From: a virus
Strand: one strand, 5' to 3'
Length of the DNA: 64,000 nucleotides
IMG/VR virus record: IMGVR_UViG_3300045988_071562
Location: 18,522 to 82,521 of that record
The notes below the pieces were generated by a model. That model was not told the DNA's origin and ran no database searches. It was given only the letters and a program-made list of their open reading frames with translations. This document shows, one piece after another, positions 25,944 through 61,667 of this stretch (positions are counted from its first letter, which is position 1; each line of letters starts with the position of its first letter). The translations under genes were made by a program, and so were the position numbers.

Positions 25944-26015
25944 TAGAAACAACAGGAATCGAACCTGTGTCACATGATATTGGATATCATTGCTCTACCA
26001 CTGAGCTATGTTTCT
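25944..26015 (-). tRNA. trnW: tRNA-Trp (anticodon CCA)
   Basis: AGAAACA-TA-GCTC-AGTGGTA-GAGC-A-ATGAT-ATCCAAT-ATCAT-GTGAC-ACAGG-TTCGATT-CCTGT-TGTTTCT-A. Full cloverleaf, 72 nt, no encoded CCA. Confidence 0.85.
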
Positions 26016-26237
26016 TTTTCATCCTCAAACGCTAAACAAGATGATTTTTTTAGAATCCCCGACTATCACTCCTCACGGGCATTGGTCTTATCTCTCTAAA
26101 AAGTTTTTGCACAAGATCGCTAGTGAGTTGCGTCTATATGCCTGCACGAACGCACACAAACAAATCCGCATTTATGTGCAAGAACTAACAATAGCTATGC
26201 TAAAGTCAGATTTCCTATCTACACTTGGTAGATAGAA

Positions 26238-26309
26238 TTGCAGGAGACGGATTCGAACCGCCGTTTCCATGGATATGAGCCATGTGAGATTCCACTTCTC
26301 TATCCTGCA
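26238..26309 (-). tRNA. trnM: tRNA with anticodon CAT (Met; could be Ile2 if lysidinylated)
   Basis: TGCAGGA-TA-GAGA-AGTGGAA-TCTC-A-CATGG-CTCATAT-CCATG-GAAAC-GGCGG-TTCGAAT-CCGTC-TCCTGCA-A. No initiator features (1:72 is paired and there is no GGG/CCC in the anticodon stem). Confidence 0.8.
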
Positions 26310-26657
26310 AGAACCCGGAAGAACCGGGTTAGCAATAGGTTTATCGTGTTATGCTTTCCACTATCCAGTTTTCTTTATTTGCGGCACGCATACTGGCAAC
26401 CCTAGCGGCTTTTTGATAACCGTGGTATGCTCCACGAGTATTTTTATGCACAACTTTAATGGCTTATGGTTCGCATCTTTTGAAAACTCCTTTAATCAGC
26501 GTGCGCTGCGCTGATTTCTTTAACTCCAAGATGCATTCCAGCTGGGAAACCAGATCCATTTAGGCTACGCCGTATCGCACCTATAATTTACCTGATCCAC
26601 ACGCTCAACTGGAAGTTTTTTCCACACATATTACGGATGAATGGCATTTAGAAGAAA

Positions 26658-26730
26658 TGGAAACTCTGGGATTCGAACCCAGGACTTACGGCTTATGAGG
26701 CCGTTGCTCTTACCGCTGAACTAAGCTTCC
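26658..26730 (-). tRNA. trnM: tRNA with anticodon CAT (Met or Ile2)
   Basis: GGAAGCT-TA-GTTC-AGCGGTAA-GAGC-A-ACGGC-CTCATAA-GCCGT-AAGTC-CTGGG-TTCGAAT-CCCAG-AGTTTCC-A. Confidence 0.8.
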
Positions 26731-26944
26731 TGAGATACCAGTTGGCAATACTGGTAACCAAACTGGCACTGTTACAGTTCTTAACCACCAACTATAACAA
26801 AGGTTTTCTGAAATACTCCTGATACTTCAGATACGCCTTCCGGGATATTTGAAGTCCCTTTAATCAGTCTCAGTTAGACTAGAAGGCTAGAGGTGTTTCT
26901 TATGAAAAAAAAGAATATTTTTGCAGCATATTAACTACTGCAAA

Positions 26945-27016
26945 CTGGGCTAGTTGGATTTGAACCAACGAATTGTGGAGTCAAATTCCACGGCCTTACC
27001 ACTTGGCGATAGCCCA
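26945..27016 (-). tRNA. trnQ: tRNA-Gln (anticodon TTG)
   Basis: TGGGCTA-TC-GCC-AAGTGGTAA-GGC-C-GTGGA-ATTTGAC-TCCAC-AATTC-GTTGG-TTCAAAT-CCAAC-TAGCCCA-G. The U1:A72 pair and 3-bp D stem are typical of bacterial tRNA-Gln. Confidence 0.85.
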
Positions 27017-32818: not shown

Positions 32819-32876
32819 ATTTTCCCTCCTGATCTGTCCCTGTCTGGGGCTGTGCTGTTCTTCTTTAACTGTCTTT

Positions 32877-53150: not shown

Positions 53151-53747
53151 TTAATCCTCGTCTGATTCAAAGATTGAAGAGGAAAAGATACAAGCCGGGC
53201 GAACACCGCAGTCATAGAAGCAGTCATTGCTGTTGACGTAACCCGAGGAGGAAACAACGGCTACGCTCTTAAAATAATCATTGTAAGGTGTACTCCATGG
53301 TGTAATAAGCCACCACCATTTATCCATATTTGGCAAATATTTCCTGTATTTTCTGTATTCATCCACGGTTAAGAGTGAAATCTTATCTCTACAAGTTCCA
53401 TATTCAGTCTGCCCGTCCAATGCCAACAGGTTACGGTCAAATTCAACAACTGCATTTCCATCGAAAGGCGTATTAATTTTTTCTAAAAATGATGTGTTTA
53501 ATTCTTCTCTTAAAGAACTTTCTTTCCAATTGCTGGAATCTGAATCAAACATTCTTGTTTTACCATAAAAACTATTTAAAATTGCAAAATATCCATCTGG
53601 AAGCTTGTCCAGGATCATCCATTCCATACCGGAAATTTCAACCACTTCCCCGGGTTTCGGAGTGCCCATGTGTTTCTTTTTGTAATCCTCGAATTCCTCT
53701 GTAATTCTTTTTATTTCTGACTCAAAATATTTCAAATCTTTTTTCAT
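53151..53747 (-). CDS. DUF6273-like protein, paralog A
   Basis: ..WWWLITPWSTPYNDYFKSVAVVSSSGYVNSNDCFYDCGVRPACIFSS.. Confidence 0.45.
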   Translation of the reverse strand: MKKDLKYFESEIKRITEEFEDYKKKHMGTPKPGEVVEISGMEWMILDKLPDGYFAILNSFYGKTRMFDSDSSNWKESSLREELNTSFLEKINTPFDGNAVVEFDRNLLALDGQTEYGTCRDKISLLTVDEYRKYRKYLPNMDKWWWLITPWSTPYNDYFKSVAVVSSSGYVNSNDCFYDCGVRPACIFSSSIFESDED

Positions 53748-53749
53748 TT

Positions 53750-54349
53750 TTATTCCTCCACCTTAGATACAAAGAGATTAGATTTTAAGATACAAACTGG
53801 GCGAACACCGTTGACACCGATGCAGACATAGTTGCCGACGTTACCCGAGGAGGAAACAACGGCAACGCTATTCCATCCGCGTTCTTTTGTTGACCAAGAT
53901 GTACATGTCCAATACCAGTCATTAAGTTTTTTGTTCGGAGTTAATTCCGTATATTTTCTTGCTTCATCAAATGTAAGAGGTCTGATTTTACATTTCACCG
54001 AAACGCCTGTATTCTGACCGTCGACCGTAATAAGATCTGCTTCATGTGTTTCAATATTCTCCGCACCAAATTCCTCTTCAAAATTCGCTAAAATTTCCGT
54101 GTCACAAAGTTCTTTTAATTCAGACTCTAAATAATCTGCATTATCCCCGAATTTTACATTTTCTTTTACAAGGTTAAAAGAAACTATCTTGGTGGTATTT
54201 TCATACTGTTCCAACACTTTGTATTTTCTTTTACCTGTAGTTTGGAATACATCACCAGGGTTCAACTCTGATAATTTGATTTTCCCACTTTTCTCCTGCT
54301 TCTCTAAAAGTTCAACCAGTTCTTTTGCTTTCTTTAAAATTTCATTCAT
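53750..54349 (-). CDS. DUF6273-like protein, paralog B
   Basis: ..WYWTCTSWSTKERGWNSVAVVSSSGNVGNYVCIGVNGVRPVCILKS.. It is a tandem duplicate of the previous gene. Confidence 0.45.
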   Translation of the reverse strand: MNEILKKAKELVELLEKQEKSGKIKLSELNPGDVFQTTGKRKYKVLEQYENTTKIVSFNLVKENVKFGDNADYLESELKELCDTEILANFEEEFGAENIETHEADLITVDGQNTGVSVKCKIRPLTFDEARKYTELTPNKKLNDWYWTCTSWSTKERGWNSVAVVSSSGNVGNYVCIGVNGVRPVCILKSNLFVSKVEE

Positions 54350-55931: not shown

Positions 55932-55963
55932 TTTAATTCTCCTTTTCTTTATTTATATGCTCA

Positions 55964-56086
55964 GTGGCATATGAAACAGGATGAAATAATTTGTCCTATG
56001 TTGAATTGTAATTTCCTGTTCTTTCATTAACTGTTTTATTTTTCCCTGTTGTGCTTTCCGGGCATTCACCCGGATTCATATGCCAC
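55964..56086. repeat. Hairpin-bracketed phased-triplet element (solo copy between the RecT-like and 207-aa genes)
   Basis: 12-bp inverted repeat GTGGCATATGAA (55964-55975) / TTCATATGCCAC (56075-56086). It encloses T(G/A)T triplets in 5-nt phase from 55992 to 56049. Confidence 0.7.
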
Positions 56087-56097
56087 CGATTTTTTAT

Positions 56098-56721
56098 TTA
56101 CTCTACGTGGAATCTTCCATAACCGCTTGTTCTGCCAGACCCGATGCCACATCCAAATCCTGCAAGCTGAATAATATTAACGATCTGCTCAATGGAATAA
56201 ATATTATCTACATATGCAAGTTCGATTTCTGCTGACCATCCGGTAAATCTGTTTAAATGTACAAGAACAGGTTTTCCTTTCTTTGGTGACATTAGTTTTT
56301 CGTCAATGTAATGCTCAGCAAACTTAATCGGTATTAAACCTCCTTTGGCGATAATATTTACTCCAGCTTTGAACTTTGTACTATATGTATCAACCCCATT
56401 TCTTACAACAGCATCGCAAAAACATTTCAATAACCCGAATGCTGTAATGCAAGGTGCATTGTTGGTGAGTGCATCAATAAGGCCTTTTTCTGAGAAATCT
56501 GTAGGTTTTCCATTGTACCAGTGAATTGATGTAATGATTTCTTCCCATACATTTGCTTTTTCAAGGTTCTTTGCCTTGTCTTTTCTCTGATCAATCAGTT
56601 CTCTTGCGGTCACGTCATTCATCTTATTGAGAACTAAGTCTCCGTCTCCGATGATTGTGACTGTTGCGTGCTTAACGTTGATTGCCTGTAACTGAATTCT
56701 TTCTTCTTTTTTAGTTTCCAT
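56098..56721 (-). CDS. Hypothetical 207-aa protein with a Gly-rich RAMP-like C-terminal loop
   Basis: GGAGG SD (56731-56735). The C-terminus reads ..IVNIIQLAGFGCGIGSGRTSGYGRFHVE. The gene is flanked on both sides by the phased-triplet elements. Confidence 0.6.
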   Translation of the reverse strand: METKKEERIQLQAINVKHATVTIIGDGDLVLNKMNDVTARELIDQRKDKAKNLEKANVWEEIITSIHWYNGKPTDFSEKGLIDALTNNAPCITAFGLLKCFCDAVVRNGVDTYSTKFKAGVNIIAKGGLIPIKFAEHYIDEKLMSPKKGKPVLVHLNRFTGWSAEIELAYVDNIYSIEQIVNIIQLAGFGCGIGSGRTSGYGRFHVE

Positions 56722-56815
56722 AATTCTTTTCCTCCGATTTTTTAATAGTTTTTATAGTTTCTGTTTGCGCAAACATTCAAGCAGATTAATCCACAATAGT
56801 TTAATATAAATATAA

Positions 56816-57716
56816 TGTTGTGTTATGTATTTTCGTATGCTGTACTGTGCTATCCTGTAGTGTATTGCGAAAGTAATCCGCTTAAATCTTTGCGTAAATT
56901 TCAGATATGCTTAACTGACAATAGAAAATGTCTTATAGTGTCCTGTATTTTTCTGTAATATGCTGTCCTATATTTTGCTTGCATTGTAGTTCGCTTTCCT
57001 ATTCTTGGCAGATTCTACTGCCAGTTAAATACATCTGTGTTGAATGCTCGGTAGGTAACATGAAGTGTCCTATAGTGTCCTATGCTGTCATATAGTGAGT
57101 TATTCTTTACTTTCCTGTGACATTTTTCATGCCACCTACCCAAAATTCAATTTTCGGAGTGCTGTTTTACAGGCGATATAAAGGTCGTATAATATATATT
57201 GTGTTGTCCTATTTTGAGGTGTATTTCGTTATTTTGTTATATTCTTCATTGACGGTTATACCACCTGTAAAACAGCACTCCGTTAAAATGTTGCGTTGTA
57301 CTTTACTGTTCTGTCTTATCCTGTAGTTTAATATGTTATTTTTTAGTATAGTAAGTGTTCGCAACACTTGTCACTCTGCATAAGTGAAATATTTTGTCCT
57401 GTTCTGTTCTGTCTTGTCTTGTCCTGTCATGTATTGTAGTAAACTTTCTGCTTATGCAGACTGATAAATGCTGTGGTTTCCTACGCTCATAAACCTGTAA
57501 AATAGGTAATTATAGTGCTTTATTGTCCTGTCCTATACTGTTGTTCTGTGTATTATCTTGTGCTATTCTATAGTTTCTGCCTGTTTTACAGGCATATCAA
57601 CGTAGGAATTTCGCCGCTACTGCACTCATGTCCCTACAAGAATAAAGTGTAATATGTGTTGTGCTGTTCTGTTTTGTATTGTATTGTGTTGTTCTGTCGT
57701 ATTATCCTACTCCTGT
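56816..57716. repeat. Eight related units of T(G/A)T triplets in strict 5-nt phase, most bracketed by short inverted repeats
   Basis: Arrays lie at 56816-56868, 56929-56973, 57061-57118, 57200-57242, 57292-57324, 57395-57437 (9 consecutive TGT), 57524-57571 and 57655-57697 (9 consecutive TGT). There is no SD-preceded ORF. Confidence 0.85.
57155..57282. repeat. Perfect 19-bp inverted repeat CGGAGTGCTGTTTTACAGG / CCTGTAAAACAGCACTCCG around a 90-bp segment
   Basis: The arms are 57155-57173 and 57264-57282. The left arm contains TTTACA (57166-57171), which lies 16 bp from TATAAT (57188-57193) inside the segment. Confidence 0.9.
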
Positions 57717-57751
57717 AGGCATATCAGCACAGTAACGGCTTCGATATTTAA

Positions 57752-57949
57752 TTACTGATTACATTTCTTTATGGTAATCGGCATTGTTGGGTGATTAATT
57801 TCCCCATCCTCAAAAACTTTTACGATTTTAACTTTATTGGGATCTCCTGCATTTAAGTAAACCATGTCCCCTACTTTTGGTTCAAAATCCGCTTTGAACA
57901 CATATCCTCTTTTTCCTCCGGCATTTTCAATTTCTACATATTTAATCAT
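57752..57949 (-). CDS. Small beta-rich protein (65 aa)
   Basis: MIKYVEIENAGGKRGYVFKADFEPKVGDMVYLNAGDPNKVKIVKVFEDGEINHPTMPITIKKCNQ. It lies immediately upstream of the repeat locus. Confidence 0.55.
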   Translation of the reverse strand: MIKYVEIENAGGKRGYVFKADFEPKVGDMVYLNAGDPNKVKIVKVFEDGEINHPTMPITIKKCNQ

Positions 57950-57968: not shown

Positions 57969-58415
57969 TTAATTAATCAGTTCCCAAACTTCTTCGTATT
58001 CAGAAATATTCTGGTATTTCTGCTTCACTGCCAGAAGTTCATTTCGGCAACGCTCTAAAAGTGCTTCGTATTCATCCGGCTGTTTCAAAATAAGCTGTGT
58101 TGGCTTATATCCGCTTTTTCCATCTGTTTTGTAAAACACTCGAATTGCTGTCGGCTTTGGCTTGTTGTCAATATCCTGTTCCACGATTTTTAACTGACAA
58201 ACTATCTGTCTGGCTTCTTGGATTCTGTATTTTTCAGCTGCTATGGAATCATCCCATGTAAAGCACTTATGTAATTCTGTACTTTCGTCCCTTGCTTTCT
58301 CAAGAATCTGTTGTGGTGTAGCTGATTCCATCTGATCGCAAATTTCCATGATTTCAGACGCACATTTTGTAGCATCTGCCTTGAAAAAATGTTTTCCCCA
58401 TGTTGCTGTTAGCAT
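57969..58415 (-). CDS. Hypothetical protein (148 aa)
   Basis: ..TELHKCFTWDDSIAAEKYRIQEARQIVCQLKIV.. looks like a conserved phage motif, but I cannot name the family. Confidence 0.5.
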   Translation of the reverse strand: MLTATWGKHFFKADATKCASEIMEICDQMESATPQQILEKARDESTELHKCFTWDDSIAAEKYRIQEARQIVCQLKIVEQDIDNKPKPTAIRVFYKTDGKSGYKPTQLILKQPDEYEALLERCRNELLAVKQKYQNISEYEEVWELIN

Positions 58416-58431: not shown

Positions 58432-60453
58432 TCAGATTACTTTCAAATCCCCATCTGTCACTCTTAGCACAATCATCTGCCTGTCTAACATAGGTATCCT
58501 GCTTTTGTCAATGCTCTCAGAATCATCAATCCAAAGCGGAAGATTCAGCCCATTCATTTCCTGTAATCCATTCAGTAAATCAACCTCGCAAAGAATTTTG
58601 TCGGAATGATTTAATCCGCTATTGTAGTCAATTCCATTGCAGATCATCTTGCAAGTTTCCACTGGATTTCCCTCAATCGTGTAATCAAGAAAACTAAACT
58701 GGAAATGCTGGAAAAATGGATTGATTTTCTCTGCCAGTGCCTTATTCTTCTGGATTGAGAAGTTAAGAACGGTATCAATGTTCTTTTCAATATCAGCTTG
58801 TACCTGTCCAAGGCTTTTCAGTTCCTCATTCAGTTCGGCTACTCGCTTTTCTTTCTCTGTGACTGCTGCCTGTGCAATATTAATATCTGCATCCACATTG
58901 GAAATCTGTTTCATAACATTGCTGATCTGCATTCTTAATTCCTGTTTCTTTCCAGGAACATCATCAAATGATTTCAGTTTCTCTTCAAGTTCTGCAATTC
59001 TCGCTGTAACCGCAAGATATTCTTCATCATTTGTCATATCTACAGATTCTGGAAGCTCCGTAAATTTGGACTGTTCTTCCTCAATCTGCTTAGTGAGTTC
59101 AGCAACTTCATCCTGCGCCGCACTGATTTCCGACTGTAATTTGTTGATTTCCTCGTTGGTTTTCTTTAATTTTGCAGAAGCAGAATTTCCAATGTCGCAA
59201 ATTCCTTTTAACTGGTTCTGCTTTGCTGATTCCCAATTTTTCTTTTGGGTTAATTCAGTTTCAATTCTAAACTTCTTCTTTTCTTCAAAGGAGGCTTTCA
59301 ATTCGGCAACCTGTTCTTCCGGCAGTTCCTGTCCGCAGGTGGGGCAAATGGTATCAGAATCATTGAATGTTTCAGCTTCAATAGCTTTCAGTCTAGAATC
59401 ATTCCACTCCTTTTCTTTGATTCTTGGATAGTCCTGTCTGGCTCTATCCAAGTCAGCTTTTGCCTGTTTTGCTTCCCTTATGTGGTTATCCAGTTCCATT
59501 TCCAACATTCGGATAGCTGATTCTTTTTCAATTTTATTTTTTGCAAGGTCGTAATACACATTCATAATGGCTGCTTTTTTGTCTTTCAGCTCTTTGTCTG
59601 CCTTGCTAACCAGACCATCCCTGGAAGATTTCAAACCACGGATTTCATATGAAAGGCTGTCGTAACCTTTTGATGAATCTTCAAGAATCCGTTCCTGTTC
59701 TTCCAGTTTGGAAAGTTCCGCATTAAGCTCCTGTTTTTTGGATTCTAAGGAGGAAGTATCTTCTGCTTCAACGCTTCGATTGGTTTCATATGCAATCTCC
59801 GTGTTTTTGGCATCCACCTTTTTCTTCTGTGCATTTAGTTCCTTTCGGAGCTTCTTCAAGGTATCCTCTACGGAATGCCCCTTTGTGATTTCTTCCACAT
59901 GAGCATACTGTGGATTCTCTTCCATAAACTGAGCAATATCGAAACCAGACATCTTTTCCAGTACCTTTCTGGATTCTGCGGTTGACTTCTGTAATGTGTC
60001 CAGAAATGGTTTTGGATTACTGCACATCAGAAGCGTTGAAGGTTCTGCTATTGACTGAATGAACTCGGTATAATCCTTTGATTTAGCCGGGAATCCGTCA
60101 ATTTCATAAGAAGTTTCATTTCCATCGAACGCCTCTTCGGACTGTCCTCTCGGTTTTCTCCACTTCTGTTTTGTGATTTTGCGGATTACTTTTTCTTTTC
60201 CATCAATCGAAAGCGTAAGCTCTCTTACAACATCAACCTTTGGCACTTCCACACCATTTTCTTTTCTACGAATAGAAGTAGGTTCTGTACCATTTGCCAT
60301 CTTTCCTGTCAGAACGTCCAAATATGCGTCCTGTAATGTGGATTTTCCTTCTCTGTTTCTGCCAGAAATCTCTGTTCTCGGAAACAAATCTACAGACTTA
60401 CTCGGAAACTTCTTGTAATTCTCCAGCAAAATTTTTTTCACTTCCACTTTCAT
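58432..60453 (-). CDS. Rad50/SbcC-like SMC-type ATPase with a CxxC zinc hook
   Basis: Walker A is in ..ISGRNREGKSTLQDA.. A long coiled coil with a central ..DTICPTCGQELPEEQ.. follows. The C-terminal Walker B/D-loop is ..LNLPLWIDDSESID.. 673 aa. Confidence 0.75.
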   Translation of the reverse strand: MKVEVKKILLENYKKFPSKSVDLFPRTEISGRNREGKSTLQDAYLDVLTGKMANGTEPTSIRRKENGVEVPKVDVVRELTLSIDGKEKVIRKITKQKWRKPRGQSEEAFDGNETSYEIDGFPAKSKDYTEFIQSIAEPSTLLMCSNPKPFLDTLQKSTAESRKVLEKMSGFDIAQFMEENPQYAHVEEITKGHSVEDTLKKLRKELNAQKKKVDAKNTEIAYETNRSVEAEDTSSLESKKQELNAELSKLEEQERILEDSSKGYDSLSYEIRGLKSSRDGLVSKADKELKDKKAAIMNVYYDLAKNKIEKESAIRMLEMELDNHIREAKQAKADLDRARQDYPRIKEKEWNDSRLKAIEAETFNDSDTICPTCGQELPEEQVAELKASFEEKKKFRIETELTQKKNWESAKQNQLKGICDIGNSASAKLKKTNEEINKLQSEISAAQDEVAELTKQIEEEQSKFTELPESVDMTNDEEYLAVTARIAELEEKLKSFDDVPGKKQELRMQISNVMKQISNVDADINIAQAAVTEKEKRVAELNEELKSLGQVQADIEKNIDTVLNFSIQKNKALAEKINPFFQHFQFSFLDYTIEGNPVETCKMICNGIDYNSGLNHSDKILCEVDLLNGLQEMNGLNLPLWIDDSESIDKSRIPMLDRQMIVLRVTDGDLKVI

Positions 60454-61060
60454 GCTCGATTATCCTCCCTATTGATACCTCATATGCAGTTCTAAGCTCT
60501 ACTTCATCACCAGATAATTTTTTCTGATAAATCCGGCTCTGGATTCTTCCGATTATGCTTACGTAATCACCGACCTTGAAATTAGCAGCTTCTCTGGCTT
60601 CTTTCCACCATGCCACACATGGAATATAATCCGTTCTTCGCAAGTCATATTCATTGCAAGCAATCATCAAATCACATACTTCTTTTCCTCTTGGTGTTCT
60701 ACGGTACACAGGTGGCTTGCAAAGATAACCTTCCAGAATGATTTTGTTTTCACCTTCTGCACTCCCATCACCATCTCCACACCAGATTGTTTCTGCTTTG
60801 ATTTCAAGAATCAAATGTAACTTTCCACTTTCATGTTTGTTTGAAGAACTGTATCTTCCTTTAACATAGACGTGTTTTCCAATCTTTAAGCCTTCCGTCT
60901 GCTTTTCTTCAACAATTACCGGAAGTAAATCTACGTTCCCGCTGGTACGCTTTGCACCAATATAGAATCTTACGAATTTTTCTCCGTCCTTGAAAAATGT
61001 TCCTGGCTGAATATCCATTATTACGCCAAATATCTGAACTTCATTCTTATTATTCTTCAT
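60398..61060 (-). CDS. SSB-like protein with two OB-fold halves, paralog B
   Basis: First half: ..EVQIFGVI..FYIGAKRTSGNVDLLPVIVEE..VYVKGRYSS.. Second half: ..ILEGYLCKPPVYRRTPRGKEVCDLMIACN..DYIPCVAWWKEAREAANFKVGDYVSIIGRIQSRIY.. Confidence 0.6.
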   Translation of the reverse strand: MKNNKNEVQIFGVIMDIQPGTFFKDGEKFVRFYIGAKRTSGNVDLLPVIVEEKQTEGLKIGKHVYVKGRYSSSNKHESGKLHLILEIKAETIWCGDGDGSAEGENKIILEGYLCKPPVYRRTPRGKEVCDLMIACNEYDLRRTDYIPCVAWWKEAREAANFKVGDYVSIIGRIQSRIYQKKLSGDEVELRTAYEVSIGRIIEHESGSEKNFAGELQEVSE

Positions 61061-61667
61061 CCTCCAATTTCTCCATTTCTTTTACGGAAATCTCATATAC
61101 ACTTTCCGTTTCTTCTCCATTAACATAAACATCACGGCTCATTAACCTGCCAGTTACTTTAATGTAATCATTTCTTTTAACCTCTACCGCCAGATCAGCA
61201 CCTTTTCCCCATAAAATACAGCGAATAAAATCCGCTCTTTCCGAATAATCCCTTGGAATTGCCACGAAAAGATTTGAAACTTTCCTGTGCGTTACTGGTG
61301 TAAGTTTTGCATATGGCTCTTTCGTGCAACTTCTGGCAATAAACTCTACTTCGTTTATATCACCTTCCGGAACCTGTCCATCCAGGATTTCCACTTCATC
61401 AGCTGCGATATAATTAACATTGTGGTGCTTATTTGGATTTTTAGAAGTGTCCATGCTTCTGATTACACCTGTTACCACAACTTCTTTTCCGTTATAATTA
61501 TTGTCTCGTACAATGGAATCTTCTATAACGATTGGGAACATATCTACTGCACCACTTTTGCGAATAACTGTCAGCATGAATTTGTAATAGTATCTTCCGT
61601 AATGTTCATGGCTGAATACTATTTCCCCGGCTCTACCGGATAATCTTACTTTATTTAATCTTTGCAT
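61050..61667 (-). CDS. SSB-like protein with two OB-fold halves, paralog A
   Basis: First half: ..NKVRLSGRAGEI..FMLTVIRKSGAVDMFPIVIED..VVVTGVIRS.. Second half: ..VEFIARSCTKEPYAKLTPVTHRKVSNLFVAIPR..DFIRCILWGKGADLAVEVKRNDYIKVTGRLMSRDV.. Confidence 0.6.
   Translation of the reverse strand: MQRLNKVRLSGRAGEIVFSHEHYGRYYYKFMLTVIRKSGAVDMFPIVIEDSIVRDNNYNGKEVVVTGVIRSMDTSKNPNKHHNVNYIAADEVEILDGQVPEGDINEVEFIARSCTKEPYAKLTPVTHRKVSNLFVAIPRDYSERADFIRCILWGKGADLAVEVKRNDYIKVTGRLMSRDVYVNGEETESVYEISVKEMEKLEDEE

What the first reader, a model, noticed from the sequence alone, without database searches (positions are those of the whole stretch)
55964..57751. Hairpin-bracketed arrays of T(G/A)T triplets in strict 5-nt phase: about 1.1 kb of ORF-free multi-copy element inside the recombination module
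Two ORF-free stretches (56722-57751 and 55932-56097) are built from at least nine related units.

**Phasing.** Each unit is a run of TGT (sometimes TAT) triplets separated by exactly 2 nt.
- Nine consecutive TGT start at 57395, 57400 ... 57435.
- Nine more start at 57655, 57660 ... 57695.
- The same phase is held in 56816-56868, 56929-56973, 57061-57118 (here as a 10-bp GTGTCCTATA repeat), 57200-57242, 57292-57324, 57524-57571 and 55992-56049.
- Several arrays end in a CTGTAG-like motif (CCTGTAG, TTGTAG or CTATAG).

**Bracketing inverted repeats.** Six arrays are bracketed by short inverted repeats that would close them into large loops:
- 55964-55975 / 56075-56086 (12 bp)
- 57050-57056 / 57134-57140 (7 bp)
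- 57155-57173 / 57264-57282 (19 bp, perfect)
- 57375-57384 / 57451-57460 (10 bp)
- 57494-57502 / 57584-57592 (9 bp; CCTGTAAAA, a 9-mer present four times in the locus)
- 57632-57639 / 57712-57719 (7 of 8)

**What it is not.** On the minus strand, which carries every flanking gene, the arrays read A(C/U)A-NN. No ORF here has an SD; 57117-57326 is a low-complexity read-through of the repeats. The spacing is not CRISPR-like, and the units are not simple tandem copies.

**Inference.** Triplets with 2-nt spacers presented in a loop are the geometry used by ring-shaped RNA-binding proteins. TRAP, for example, wraps 11 G/UAG triplets spaced by 2-3 nt. I therefore infer a family of protein-wrapping RNA (or ssDNA) elements acting as a decoy, sponge or assembly scaffold. 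Candidate partners are encoded next door: the 65-aa beta-rich protein (57752-57949), the 207-aa Gly-loop protein (56098-56721) and the two dual-OB SSB-like paralogs (60398-61667).

**Alternatives.** An ACA-rich decoy for ACA-specific (MazF-type) RNases, a type III antitoxin-RNA mimic, or a replication origin, centromere or pac region. A weaker echo (TGT at 32841, 32851, 32856) sits in the 5' UTR of the 32818 gene. I know of no described element with this architecture.
Basis: partly seen in the sequence, partly recalled or inferred. Interest (0 to 1): 0.9.

Follow-up and report, generated by a model that had tools for sequence, protein, structure and literature searches.

The report
Phage VIPR guide-RNA array, non-GGY handle
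The odd 5-base-periodic repeats are most likely nine guide RNAs of a phage VIPR system, a CRISPR-like RNA-guided DNA-binding system first described in 2026, but they carry an A-C/U-A handle instead of the published G-G-pyrimidine handle.

Summary
T(G/A)T recurs at lag 5 with z of about 12-15 against shuffles, only at this locus in the 64 kb window. All nine units sit inside long imperfect stems.

The 207-aa "Gly-loop" ORF between the arrays (56098-56721, minus strand) is a minimal RAMP protein. A profile of its family hits only the solved SUSP1 Vipr protein (E = 1.4e-14), and its model matches Csm3/Cas7.

Read on the gene strand, the arrays are A(C/U)A-NN pentamers. In 90 related loci I found 421 such arrays, all on the vipr strand, with 6-17 repeats each. 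The triplet is conserved and the NN positions carry about 0.05 bits.

Phages whose Vipr protein is about 100% identical keep the stems, with compensatory changes, but swap whole guide cassettes.

A 148-aa ORF (57969-58415) co-occurs in 86 of 89 loci. The 65-aa ORF and the SSB paralogs do not track with the arrays.

I read this as a VIPR system (bioRxiv 10.64898/2026.04.26.720920) of an undescribed variant. It differs in three ways:
- the handle is AYA, not GGY;
- the G-loop reads S-G-R, not D-W-R;
- the guides are stem-bracketed.

No targets were found: seven guides gave no exact 1-nt-skip match. RNA expression and the transcribed strand are untested.

The parts
57608..57740 (-). vrRNA-like unit 1: a roughly 31-bp closing stem around 10 pentamers (ATAcg ACAga ACAac ACAat ACAat ACAaa ACAga ACAgc ACAac ACAta; array 57653-57702)
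   Evidence: Fold, register. The stem arms are 94% conserved, but the loop is replaced in most of the 26 close relatives.
57475..57612 (-). vrRNA-like unit 2: 29-nt arms, 10 pentamers (array 57522-57571)
   Evidence: (I2)
57358..57476 (-). vrRNA-like unit 3: 23-31-nt arms, 10 canonical pentamers (array 57388-57437). One of the very few differences from the 99.9%-identical loci L016/L019 is an NN base here.
   Evidence: (I6)
57283..57372 (-). vrRNA-like unit 4: short (about 10-bp) stem, 11 partly degenerate pentamers (array 57295-57349)
   Evidence: (I11)
57152..57285 (-). vrRNA-like unit 5: 32-nt arms including the perfect 19-bp core, 10 pentamers (array 57193-57242)
   Evidence: (I1). Covariation across 6 variants: 95.6% of cells paired, 5 pairs with compensatory changes, 0 of 500 shuffles reach the score.
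57038..57152 (-). vrRNA-like unit 6: 25-nt arms, 8-11 pentamers (array 57064-57103)
   Evidence: (I5)
56898..57040 (-). vrRNA-like unit 7: 25-29-nt arms, 9 pentamers (array 56927-56971). Conserved in all 27 close relatives.
   Evidence: (I4)
56775..56900 (-). vrRNA-like unit 8: roughly 23-bp stem (seen on the minus strand only), 11 pentamers (array 56809-56863). Conserved in close relatives, with whole-pentamer indels.
56098..56721 (-). vipr homologue: 207-aa single-RRM RAMP with a C-terminal G-rich loop GFGCGIGSGRTSGYGRFHVE
   Evidence: - Pfam RAMPs: E = 0.006.
- AF2 model: pLDDT 81.
- Foldseek top hits: Csm3/Cas7, E = 7e-5.
- Family profile A2 against PDB sequences: only SUSP1 Vipr, E = 1.4e-14.
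- hhalign of the narrow clade against SUSP1 Vipr: E = 8e-5.
55955..56095 (-). vrRNA-like unit 9, downstream of vipr: 25-nt arms plus an internal GC hairpin, about 12 degenerate pentamers. Identical in 27 close relatives.
   Evidence: (I3)
57969..58415 (-). Candidate accessory gene (vap-like), 148 aa, function unknown, possibly winged-helix-like
   Evidence: - A homologue lies upstream of array plus vipr in 86 of 89 loci; the other 3 are truncated.
- It is also present at about 40% identity in distant Vipr clades with other handles.
- It has no similarity to SUSP1 vap1.
- It has no significant fold match.
57752..57949 (-). 65-aa ORF: an insertion between the vap-like gene and the array, not a conserved part of the system
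   Evidence: Present in only 5 of 89 loci. No family hit.

Best explanation
**What it is.** The locus is a phage VIPR-type RNA-guided system of a variant kind. The gene order on the minus strand is:
1. a vap-like gene (148 aa);
2. eight vrRNA units;
3. vipr (207-aa RAMP);
4. one more vrRNA unit.

**Steps I infer by analogy with the solved SUSP1 system, not shown here.**
- The region is transcribed with the flanking early genes.
- Each unit folds into a long closing stem around 8-12 pentamers.
- Vipr protomers polymerise along the pentamers, one per repeat. Each grips the constant A-(C/U)-A triplet and exposes the two variable bases.
- The exposed dinucleotides together read a gapped sequence in double-stranded DNA of a competing phage or other mobile element, probably NNxNNx with the skipped base at codon wobble positions.
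- Binding silences that DNA.
- The long stems most likely mark processing and end-capping sites. They would play the role of the 5' hairpin and 3' pseudoknot of SUSP1 vrRNAs. An RNase III-type cut is my guess.

**What is shown here.**
- The protein is homologous to Vipr.
- The arrays have a conserved-triplet, variable-NN architecture.
- The arrays always lie on the vipr strand.
- The stems covary.
- Guide cassettes turn over between near-identical phages.
- The 148-aa gene co-occurs with the arrays and vipr.

**How sure.** About 0.85 that the RAMP binds these arrays as its RNA partners, and about 0.6 that they guide DNA recognition by the published 1-nt-skip rule. The confidence given for this explanation (0.75) lies between the two.
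For: **Protein**
- The family profile hits only the SUSP1 Vipr protein in the PDB sequence set (E = 1.4e-14).
- The AF2 model matches Csm3/Cas7 backbone RAMPs.
- Pfam gives a weak RAMPs hit on the G-loop.

**RNA architecture**
- 421 arrays (132 distinct) occur in 90 loci, all on the vipr strand and none on the other.
- Arrays have 6-17 repeats, median 10. Information content is 1.55, 0.89 and 1.80 bits at triplet positions against 0.04 and 0.06 bits at NN.
- This matches the published definition of 9-16 pentamers with a conserved triplet and hypervariable NN (10.64898/2026.04.26.720920).

**Hypervariability**
- In 27 loci the vipr CDS is 99.8% identical at nucleotide level.
- Stem arms are 92-94% identical there.
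- Loop arrays of units 1-6 are mostly replaced; there are 15 distinct upstream regions.

**Structure and strand**
- Stems show compensatory changes.
- Changes that give G-U on the minus strand outnumber those that give G-U on the plus strand, 29 to 16. Within the window the count is 27 G-U against 13.
- SUSP1 vrRNAs are also on the vipr strand.

**Handle and protein co-vary**
- Homologues with a SUSP1-like E/D-W-R G-loop carry YNNGG arrays (L103, L104).
- The window clade (S-G-R) carries AYA-NN.
- Other clades carry AUU-NN or NCA-NN.

**Consistent with a wobble-skip code**
- NN usage correlates with codon positions 1-2 in sense orientation (r = 0.64), not with other phases or antisense.
- There is no self-target in the window.
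Against: **No target found.** Seven guides were searched as exact NNx patterns and gave no match in IMG/VR (and seed-only random hits in 72-73). Two of them gave no match in metagenomes. The one match in genome contigs lies in a spoIIE-like gene of a GC-rich MAG. Its skip base falls on codon position 1, so it is probably chance. The 1-nt-skip rule, and DNA targeting itself, are therefore unverified for this clade.

**The handle is not GGY.** The SUSP1 residues that read the two guanines are not conserved: D177/W178 correspond to S195/G196 in the window protein.

**No expression data.** The strand call rests on modest statistics (p = 0.07). Promoter and terminator scans are uninformative.

**Geometry.** A stem that closes both ends of the guide fits poorly with a straight 10-protomer filament unless it is cut or opened. 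This is my reasoning, not a test.
Confidence: 0.75

Rival explanations
1. It is the same Vipr-vrRNA complex, but the RNAs are made from the plus strand as U(G/A)U-NN, antisense to vipr. This would sit closer to the published YNNNG variant, because it keeps a purine-pyrimidine step.
For: - U-R-U keeps a pyrimidine at triplet position 3.
- The arginine that stacks on Y3 in SUSP1 (R179) is conserved as R197.
- Promoter scans do not decide the strand.
- Three of the nine units fold slightly better on the plus strand.
Against: - All 421 arrays keep one orientation relative to vipr, as in SUSP1, where the sense strand is the expressed one.
- G-U-preserving changes favour the minus strand, 29 to 16, and 27 to 13 within the window.
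- The minus-strand loops are A/C-rich and unstructured, whereas the plus-strand loops self-pair.
- NN usage matches codon positions 1-2 only when read in the minus sense.
Confidence: 0.12
2. The arrays are protein-wrapping RNAs that act as a decoy, sponge or assembly scaffold, for example for an ACA-specific RNase or a host RNA-binding protein. They carry no sequence-specific guide information.
For: - The periodic triplets in an unstructured loop are a genuine protein-binding register.
- No target could be found for seven guides.
Against: - A sponge needs only the constant triplet. Here all 16 dinucleotides occur at NN, with about 0.05 bits of information.
- Whole arrays are exchanged between otherwise identical phages.
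- The adjacent conserved protein is a homologue of a proven guide-RNA-binding protein.
- The triplet is AUA in a quarter of repeats, and AUU or NCA in sister clades. This argues against an ACA-specific nuclease decoy.
Confidence: 0.07
3. The region is a double-stranded DNA element, such as a replication origin, iteron set, partition site or pac site of the recombination/replication module. Its 5- or 10-bp repeats would be bound by a DNA-binding protein.
For: - It is a long ORF-free, repeat-rich stretch inside the early/recombination gene block, next to SSB, RecT and an SbcC-like ATPase.
- One unit has a 10-bp GTGTCCTATA repeat.
Against: - Iterons are conserved, not hypervariable.
- Stems show compensatory and G-U-preserving changes, which is typical of a folded single strand.
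- The arrays travel with vipr and the 148-aa gene into unrelated neighbourhoods that lack RecT and SbcC.
- The repeat orientation relative to vipr is strict.
Confidence: 0.04

Closest known systems
VIPR systems (Vipr protein + vrRNA), type II exemplar Escherichia phage SUSP1 (bioRxiv 10.64898/2026.04.26.720920 and 10.64898/2026.04.26.720927)
   Same: - A phage-encoded, roughly 200-aa single-RRM RAMP with a G-loop.
- Homology by profile search (E = 1.4e-14).
- Guide RNAs encoded in the intergenic DNA on both sides of the gene, on the same strand.
- About 10 tandem pentamers of constant triplet plus variable NN.
- A small accessory gene next door.
- No self-targets.
   Different: - The handle is A-(C/U)-A, not G-G-Y or any of the listed G-containing variants (NNNGG, YNNNG, NNNNG).
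- The G-loop is S-G-R instead of D-W-R, and the thumb motif differs.
- Each guide is closed by a 23-32-nt-arm stem rather than a 5' hairpin plus 3' pseudoknot.
- There are eight guides upstream and one downstream.
- The accessory protein is unrelated to SUSP1 vap1.
- Targets and the skip rule are unverified.
CRISPR class 1 backbone RAMPs (Csm3/Cmr4/Cas7) with crRNA
   Same: - The predicted fold is closest to Csm3.
- One protomer binds per fixed RNA step, with a thumb and a G-loop.
- Conserved structured segments alternate with exchangeable guide segments. In close relatives this looks like repeats and spacers.
   Different: - There are no CRISPR repeats, no Cas1/Cas2 and no other cas genes.
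- The period is 5 nt with three sequestered bases, not 6 nt with one flipped base.
- The guide information is non-contiguous.
- The system is encoded by a phage.
TRAP-trp leader RNA (11 G/UAG triplets spaced by 2-3 nt)
   Same: Triplets spaced by two bases are held by repeated protein subunits.
   Different: - The protein is a RAMP filament former, not an 11-mer beta-ring.
- The spacers are hypervariable and carry information.
- There is no attenuation context.
- No TRAP-like protein is present, and the 65-aa ORF is not conserved.

Membership tests
VIPR | Vipr protein: small single-RRM RAMP with G-rich loop and thumb, homologous to characterised Vipr | tested here: met
   - Family profile A2 against SUSP1 Vipr (36pp_D): E = 1.4e-14, the only significant PDB hit.
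- Foldseek: Csm3/Cas7, E = 7e-5.
- Pfam RAMPs: E = 0.006.
- hhalign of the narrow clade: E = 8e-5.
- The single sequence alone is weak (E = 0.05).
VIPR | vrRNA: about 9-16 tandem pentamers with a conserved triplet alternating with hypervariable NN | tested here: met
   Arrays have 6-17 repeats, median 10. NN positions carry 0.04 and 0.06 bits against 0.9-1.8 bits at triplet positions. All 16 dinucleotides are used.
VIPR | Triplet consensus GGY, or the listed variants NNNGG, YNNNG, NNNNG | tested here: not met
   The triplet is A (93%) - C/U (70%/25%) - A (97%), with essentially no G. Homologues with a SUSP1-like G-loop do carry YNNGG. This clade is therefore a variant, not the canonical kind.
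VIPR | Residues that read G1/G2 in SUSP1 (D177, W178 in the G-loop; R138 in the thumb) | tested here: not met
   - D177 and W178 align with S195 and G196.
- R179 is kept as R197.
- R138 aligns with L156, and the clade has an invariant N157-R158-F159 motif instead.
- This is consistent with the changed handle.
VIPR | vrRNAs encoded in intergenic DNA flanking vipr, on the same strand | tested here: met
   Eight units lie upstream and one downstream. In 90 loci all 421 arrays are on the vipr strand, mostly within 1 kb upstream. SUSP1 has the same layout. Transcription itself was not tested.
VIPR | Conserved structured 3' tail (a pseudoknot in the SUSP1 clade) | tested here: not met
   Instead, a long stem pairs the 5' and 3' flanks of every array, and it has covariation support. 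The paper says array architectures vary between types, but I could not find this one in its text.
VIPR | Accessory vap gene adjacent | tested here: inconclusive
   A 148-aa gene co-occurs in 86 of 89 loci and in distant clades. It is unrelated to SUSP1 vap1, and its fold is unassigned.
VIPR | NN dinucleotides match targets in rival mobile elements under the 1-nt-skip rule, with no self-targets | tested here: inconclusive
   - No exact match for seven guides in IMG/VR or metagenomes.
- One probably chance hit in genome contigs.
- No self-target.
- NN usage fits codon positions 1-2 (r = 0.64).
- Mismatch-tolerant searches of large collections were not possible.
VIPR | Vipr-vrRNA ribonucleoprotein forms and represses matching DNA | not testable with these tools
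   This needs small-RNA sequencing, pull-down and reporter assays.
CRISPR-Cas | CRISPR repeat-spacer array and cas operon (Cas1/Cas2, multiple RAMPs) | tested here: not met
   There are no tandem direct repeats of CRISPR type. The neighbours are RecT, SSB, an SbcC-like gene and genes of unknown function. There is no PADLOC hit for the RAMP.
TRAP-type RNA-binding attenuation | TRAP-family beta-sandwich subunit and (G/U)AG repeats in a leader RNA | tested here: not met
   No TRAP-like family hit for any neighbour. The triplet is AYA. The 65-aa beta-rich ORF is absent from 84 of 89 loci.

The most novel reading that the evidence does not exclude
The Vipr superfamily contains a large gut-phage branch whose protein-held handle has switched from GGY to AYA, and to AUU or NCA in sister clades. 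The switch goes together with changes in the G-loop, which would give naturally orthogonal protein-guide pairs. In this branch the guides are modular cassettes between conserved, covarying stems, and they are swapped between otherwise identical phages. That is a repeat-spacer-like organisation with an unknown renewal mechanism. Its targeting rule may also differ from the published 1-nt skip, since seven guides gave no exact match under that rule.
Probability: 0.4. Interest if true: 0.8.

Novelty: new variant of a known kind. Interest (0 to 1): 0.62.

Why it matters
**What is already known.** VIPR was reported in 2026 as a minimal, PAM-free, RNA-guided DNA-binding system and a proposed ancestor of CRISPR. 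Its published code is built on G-containing handles.

**What this locus would add, if the reading is right.**
- The handle itself is evolvable and co-varies with the G-loop. That points to orthogonal Vipr/guide pairs that could be multiplexed in one cell.
- It gives natural sequence pairs for working out how the handle is recognised.
- The family is abundant: more than 2,000 protein clusters at 90% identity and about 940 at 50%. Judging from the contig sources, they are largely from gut-type phage contigs.
- Guide cassettes turn over between near-identical phages. This makes the dynamics of phage-against-phage targeting directly observable in metagenomes.

**The main gap.** The failure to find targets means the decoding rule for this branch is still open.

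Tried and rejected
**Database and annotation searches**
- Rfam at gathering and relaxed thresholds gave only chance miRNA-like hairpin hits.
- blastn of the locus against 50,697 GenBank phages gave no match.
- PADLOC and NCBIfam gave nothing for the RAMP, the 148-aa protein or the 65-aa protein.
- Sigma-70 promoter and terminator scans were at background. I make no promoter claim.

**Target searches**
- A local search used all 132 distinct guides against the window and 90 loci at skips of 0, 1 and 2. No rule stood out.
- The longest runs of matched dinucleotides within the window were 4-5 for every rule.
- Exact NNx patterns were run in public collections for window units 1, 2, 3, 7 and 8 and for two relatives' guides. 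All were empty apart from:
  - 11 seed-only hits that did not extend;
  - one hit in a spoIIE-like gene of a GC-rich Eubacteriales MAG. I set it aside because the skip falls on codon position 1 and the GC content does not fit a 37%-GC phage.

**Accessory proteins**
- The 148-aa protein gave an AF2 model of moderate confidence and no significant PDB fold match. The scattered sub-threshold hits were to winged-helix proteins. I mention this only as a hint.
- The 65-aa ORF and the RecT/SbcC/SSB neighbours were rejected as partners on co-occurrence.

**Limits**
- The point-substitution spectrum between near-identical guides is not clearly enriched at NN: 9, 17, 4, 13 and 17 changes at positions 1-5. 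Variability comes mainly from cassette replacement.
- I could not see the preprint's figures or supplementary tables. I therefore cannot rule out that one of its seven types already includes this clade.
Full report

Yes. In 56722-57751 the count of TGT pairs at lag 5 is 25, against 3.6 +/- 1.8 in dinucleotide-preserving shuffles (z = 11.7). Lags 10, 15 and 20 are equally strong, and the neighbouring lags are depleted. With TAT included, z = 15.4.

A scan of all 64 kb on both strands finds strong clusters only between 56772 and 57731. The 'echo' near 32841 does not stand out.

The small stretch 55932-56097 is weak by autocorrelation alone. In register it is still a degenerate array inside a 25-nt-arm stem.

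The six quoted inverted repeats are cores of longer imperfect stems with 23-32-nt arms, 80-88% complementary and 61-86 nt apart. Folding shows that all nine units are long stems closing a large, mostly unpaired pentamer tract.

No Rfam family and no tRNA gene account for the region.

**2. What is next to it?**

All genes here are on the minus strand.

The 207-aa ORF that separates the large array from the small one has a weak Pfam RAMPs hit on its C-terminal G-rich loop.

- Searching its single sequence against PDB sequences gave, as best hit, 'SUSP1 Vipr protein' at E = 0.05.
- The family is large. There are 2,159 clusters at 90% identity with E <= 1e-3 and 941 representatives at 50% identity.
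- A profile of 55 diverse members hits SUSP1 Vipr at E = 1.4e-14, with nothing else significant.
- The AF2 model (pLDDT 81) matches Csm3/Cas7 backbone subunits of type III and VII CRISPR complexes (E down to 7e-5). Structural similarity to CRISPR RAMPs is also how Vipr proteins were originally discovered.

**3. The known system**

Two 2026 preprints (found, read) describe VIPR.

- A roughly 20-kDa phage RAMP polymerises on vrRNAs made of 9-16 pentamers, one protomer per pentamer.
- It sequesters a constant GGY triplet and exposes the NN dinucleotides.
- The NN bases pair with double-stranded DNA while skipping every third target base.
- Natural targets are rival phages and satellites.
- Seven types are described, and the listed handle variants are NNNGG, YNNNG and NNNNG.

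I fetched the SUSP1 locus. Its vrRNAs are YNNGG runs on the vipr strand. Each is preceded by a small hairpin and followed by a pseudoknot tail.

**4. Does the window fit?**

*Architecture.* Read on the minus strand, the arrays are A(C/U)A-NN.

- In 90 related loci I found 421 arrays, of which 132 are distinct. Every one is on the vipr strand and none is on the other.
- They have 6-17 repeats, median 10.
- Triplet positions carry 1.55, 0.89 and 1.80 bits. The NN positions carry 0.04 and 0.06 bits, and all 16 dinucleotides are used.
- The triplet figures are inflated by the way arrays were selected. The NN figures are not.

*Hypervariability.* Twenty-seven loci encode a Vipr protein 99-100% identical to the window's.

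- Their vipr CDS is 99.8% identical at nucleotide level.
- They have 15 different upstream regions.
- Stem arms stay 92-94% identical.
- Loop arrays of units 1-6 are mostly replaced by unrelated arrays of the same AYA-NN kind.
- Units 7-9 are conserved.

*Very close relatives.* Two loci are 99.90-99.95% identical to the window over 2 kb. The differences visible in the alignment fall on NN positions in units 2 and 3.

*Stems.* The stems carry compensatory changes.

- Across the eight units analysed, 14 pair positions out of 207 show compensatory changes.
- For unit 5, 95.6% of cells are paired, 5 pairs change on both sides, and no shuffle out of 500 reaches the covariation score.

**5. Which strand?**

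Several lines favour the minus strand.

- The orientation relative to vipr is invariant, and it is the expressed orientation in SUSP1.
- One-sided changes from a Watson-Crick pair give G-U on the minus strand 29 times and on the plus strand 16 times (p = 0.07).
- Within the window, the stems have 27 G-U pairs on the minus strand and 13 on the plus strand.
- Minus-strand loops are A/C-rich and unpaired.

I put the minus strand at about 85%. The inferred double-stranded target pattern is the same for either strand, by simple complementarity.

**6. How it differs from published VIPR**

*The handle has no G.* In the G-loop, SUSP1 C173-G-V-G-D177-W178-R179 aligns with C191-G-I-G-S195-G196-R197 of the window protein. 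The residues that read G1 and G2 are therefore replaced, while the arginine is kept.

*Handle and protein co-vary.* Across the wider family the G-loop falls into classes.

| G-loop class | Example loci | Array type |
|---|---|---|
| E/D-W-R (SUSP1-like) | L103, L104 | YNNGG |
| S-G-R (window clade) | window, L001-L090 | AYA-NN |
| H-T-Q-R | L105 | AUU-NN, with the same stem brackets |
| others | L108, L109 | NCA-NN |

The correspondence is not one-to-one. L107, with a related T-Q-R loop, carries (A/G)CA-NN arrays.

*Guide ends.* The vrRNA ends are closed by one long stem instead of a hairpin plus a pseudoknot.

*Accessory gene.*
- A 148-aa gene lies upstream of the arrays in 86 of 89 loci, and the other three are truncated.
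- It recurs at about 40% identity in the distant non-GGY clades.
- It is absent from the two GGY-type loci examined.
- It is unrelated to SUSP1 vap1.
- It has no confident fold assignment.

*An occasional neighbour.* An SMC/SbcC-like ATPase accompanies the module in about 40% of loci and again in L105/L106.

*Not a partner.* The 65-aa ORF is an insertion found in only 5 loci.

**7. Targets**

No self-target exists in the window under any skip rule, as reported for VIPR.

I spent all the collection scans on exact NNx patterns for seven guides. There was no match in IMG/VR or in the metagenome set.

- A 16-base seed gave 11 hits that did not extend.
- One 22-base match lies in a spoIIE-like gene of a GC-rich Eubacteriales MAG. 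The skip falls on codon position 1, so I regard it as chance.

One indirect result does fit the wobble-skip code. The NN dinucleotide usage of 999 internal pentamers correlates with codon positions 1-2 of the window's own genes in sense orientation (r = 0.64). It does not correlate with positions 2-3 or 3-1 (r = 0.15 and 0.22) or with the antisense readings (all negative). A period-3 target would produce this pattern. Other compositional constraints could too.

**8. Verdict**

The decoy/sponge function and the other candidate partners are not supported.

The locus is best explained as a VIPR system of a variant kind. My confidence is about 0.85 that the 207-aa RAMP binds these arrays as its RNA partners. 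It is lower, about 0.6, that they guide DNA recognition by the published 1-nt-skip rule.

The class itself was published months ago. What looks new is the non-G handle with a matching G-loop change, the stem-bracketed exchangeable guide cassettes, and the conserved 148-aa partner. I could not inspect the preprint's figures or supplementary data, so overlap with one of its seven types cannot be excluded.

Noticed in passing
L105 3227-3470 and 2387-2460; L106 same region: A distant Vipr homologue (P0158, G-loop GIHTQRKNGYGRF) is flanked by arrays of AUU-NN pentamers (ATTGA ATTTT ATTGG ...). They are closed by stems (GTCCACAT.../...ATGTGGAT). The vap-like gene and an SMC-like ATPase lie upstream. 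This is a third handle type.
   Followed up: partly
L108 400-827 and 1493-1590; L109 837-1500: Two further Vipr homologues have arrays in which only CA is constant (NCA-NN). Their G-loops are GIGTCRPG... and GIGSHKPS... Both have the vap-like gene upstream.
   Followed up: partly
L103 1000-1230; L104 3152-4125: Family members with a SUSP1-like E-W-R G-loop carry long canonical YNNGG tracts; in L104 the tract is about 1 kb. They lack the 148-aa vap-like gene.
   Followed up: partly
L102 969-1000 (minus strand): This is the only exact 22-base match to the unit 8 NNx pattern in 596 Gb of genomes. It lies in a spoIIE-like sporulation phosphatase gene of a GC-rich Eubacteriales MAG. The skip base is at codon position 1. 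It is probably chance, but a phage guide against a sporulation gene would be worth a second look in the real host.
   Followed up: partly
window 58432-60453 (minus strand): The 673-aa SbcC/SMC-like ATPase has LmuB- and JetC-like PADLOC hits. It sits directly upstream of the vap-like gene here, in about 40% of related loci, and again (29% identity) in the distant L105/L106 loci. It may be an optional second accessory rather than a plain recombination gene.
   Followed up: partly
window 57752-57949 (minus strand): The 65-aa ORF with no family hit is present only in the window-like subset of near-identical phages (5 of 89 loci). It is a recent insertion between the vap-like gene and the first guide unit.
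   Followed up: yes
window 53151-54349 (minus strand); L004 742-3539: There are two tandem DUF6273 / Hoc-like paralogues in the window. In a relative (L004/L005) the same paralogues sit next to a 343-aa reverse transcriptase (RVT_1). This hints at a diversity-generating retroelement in this phage group.
   Followed up: no
window 25944-27016 (minus strand): There is a cluster of four tRNA genes (Trp-CCA, Met-CAT x2, Gln-TTG) in the phage genome.
   Followed up: no
L004 6648-7349: In one relative the gene immediately downstream of vipr is a metallo-beta-lactamase-fold protein with faint Anti-Pycsar Apyc1 hits. A counter-defence gene may therefore sit next to the VIPR module.
   Followed up: no
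window 56809-56863 compared with L011-L033: Variants of guide unit 8 differ by insertion or deletion of exactly one pentamer (ACAat/ACGgc) in the 5' half, while the 3' half is constant. This would fit 3'-to-5' target engagement, with a more tolerant 5' end.
   Followed up: no
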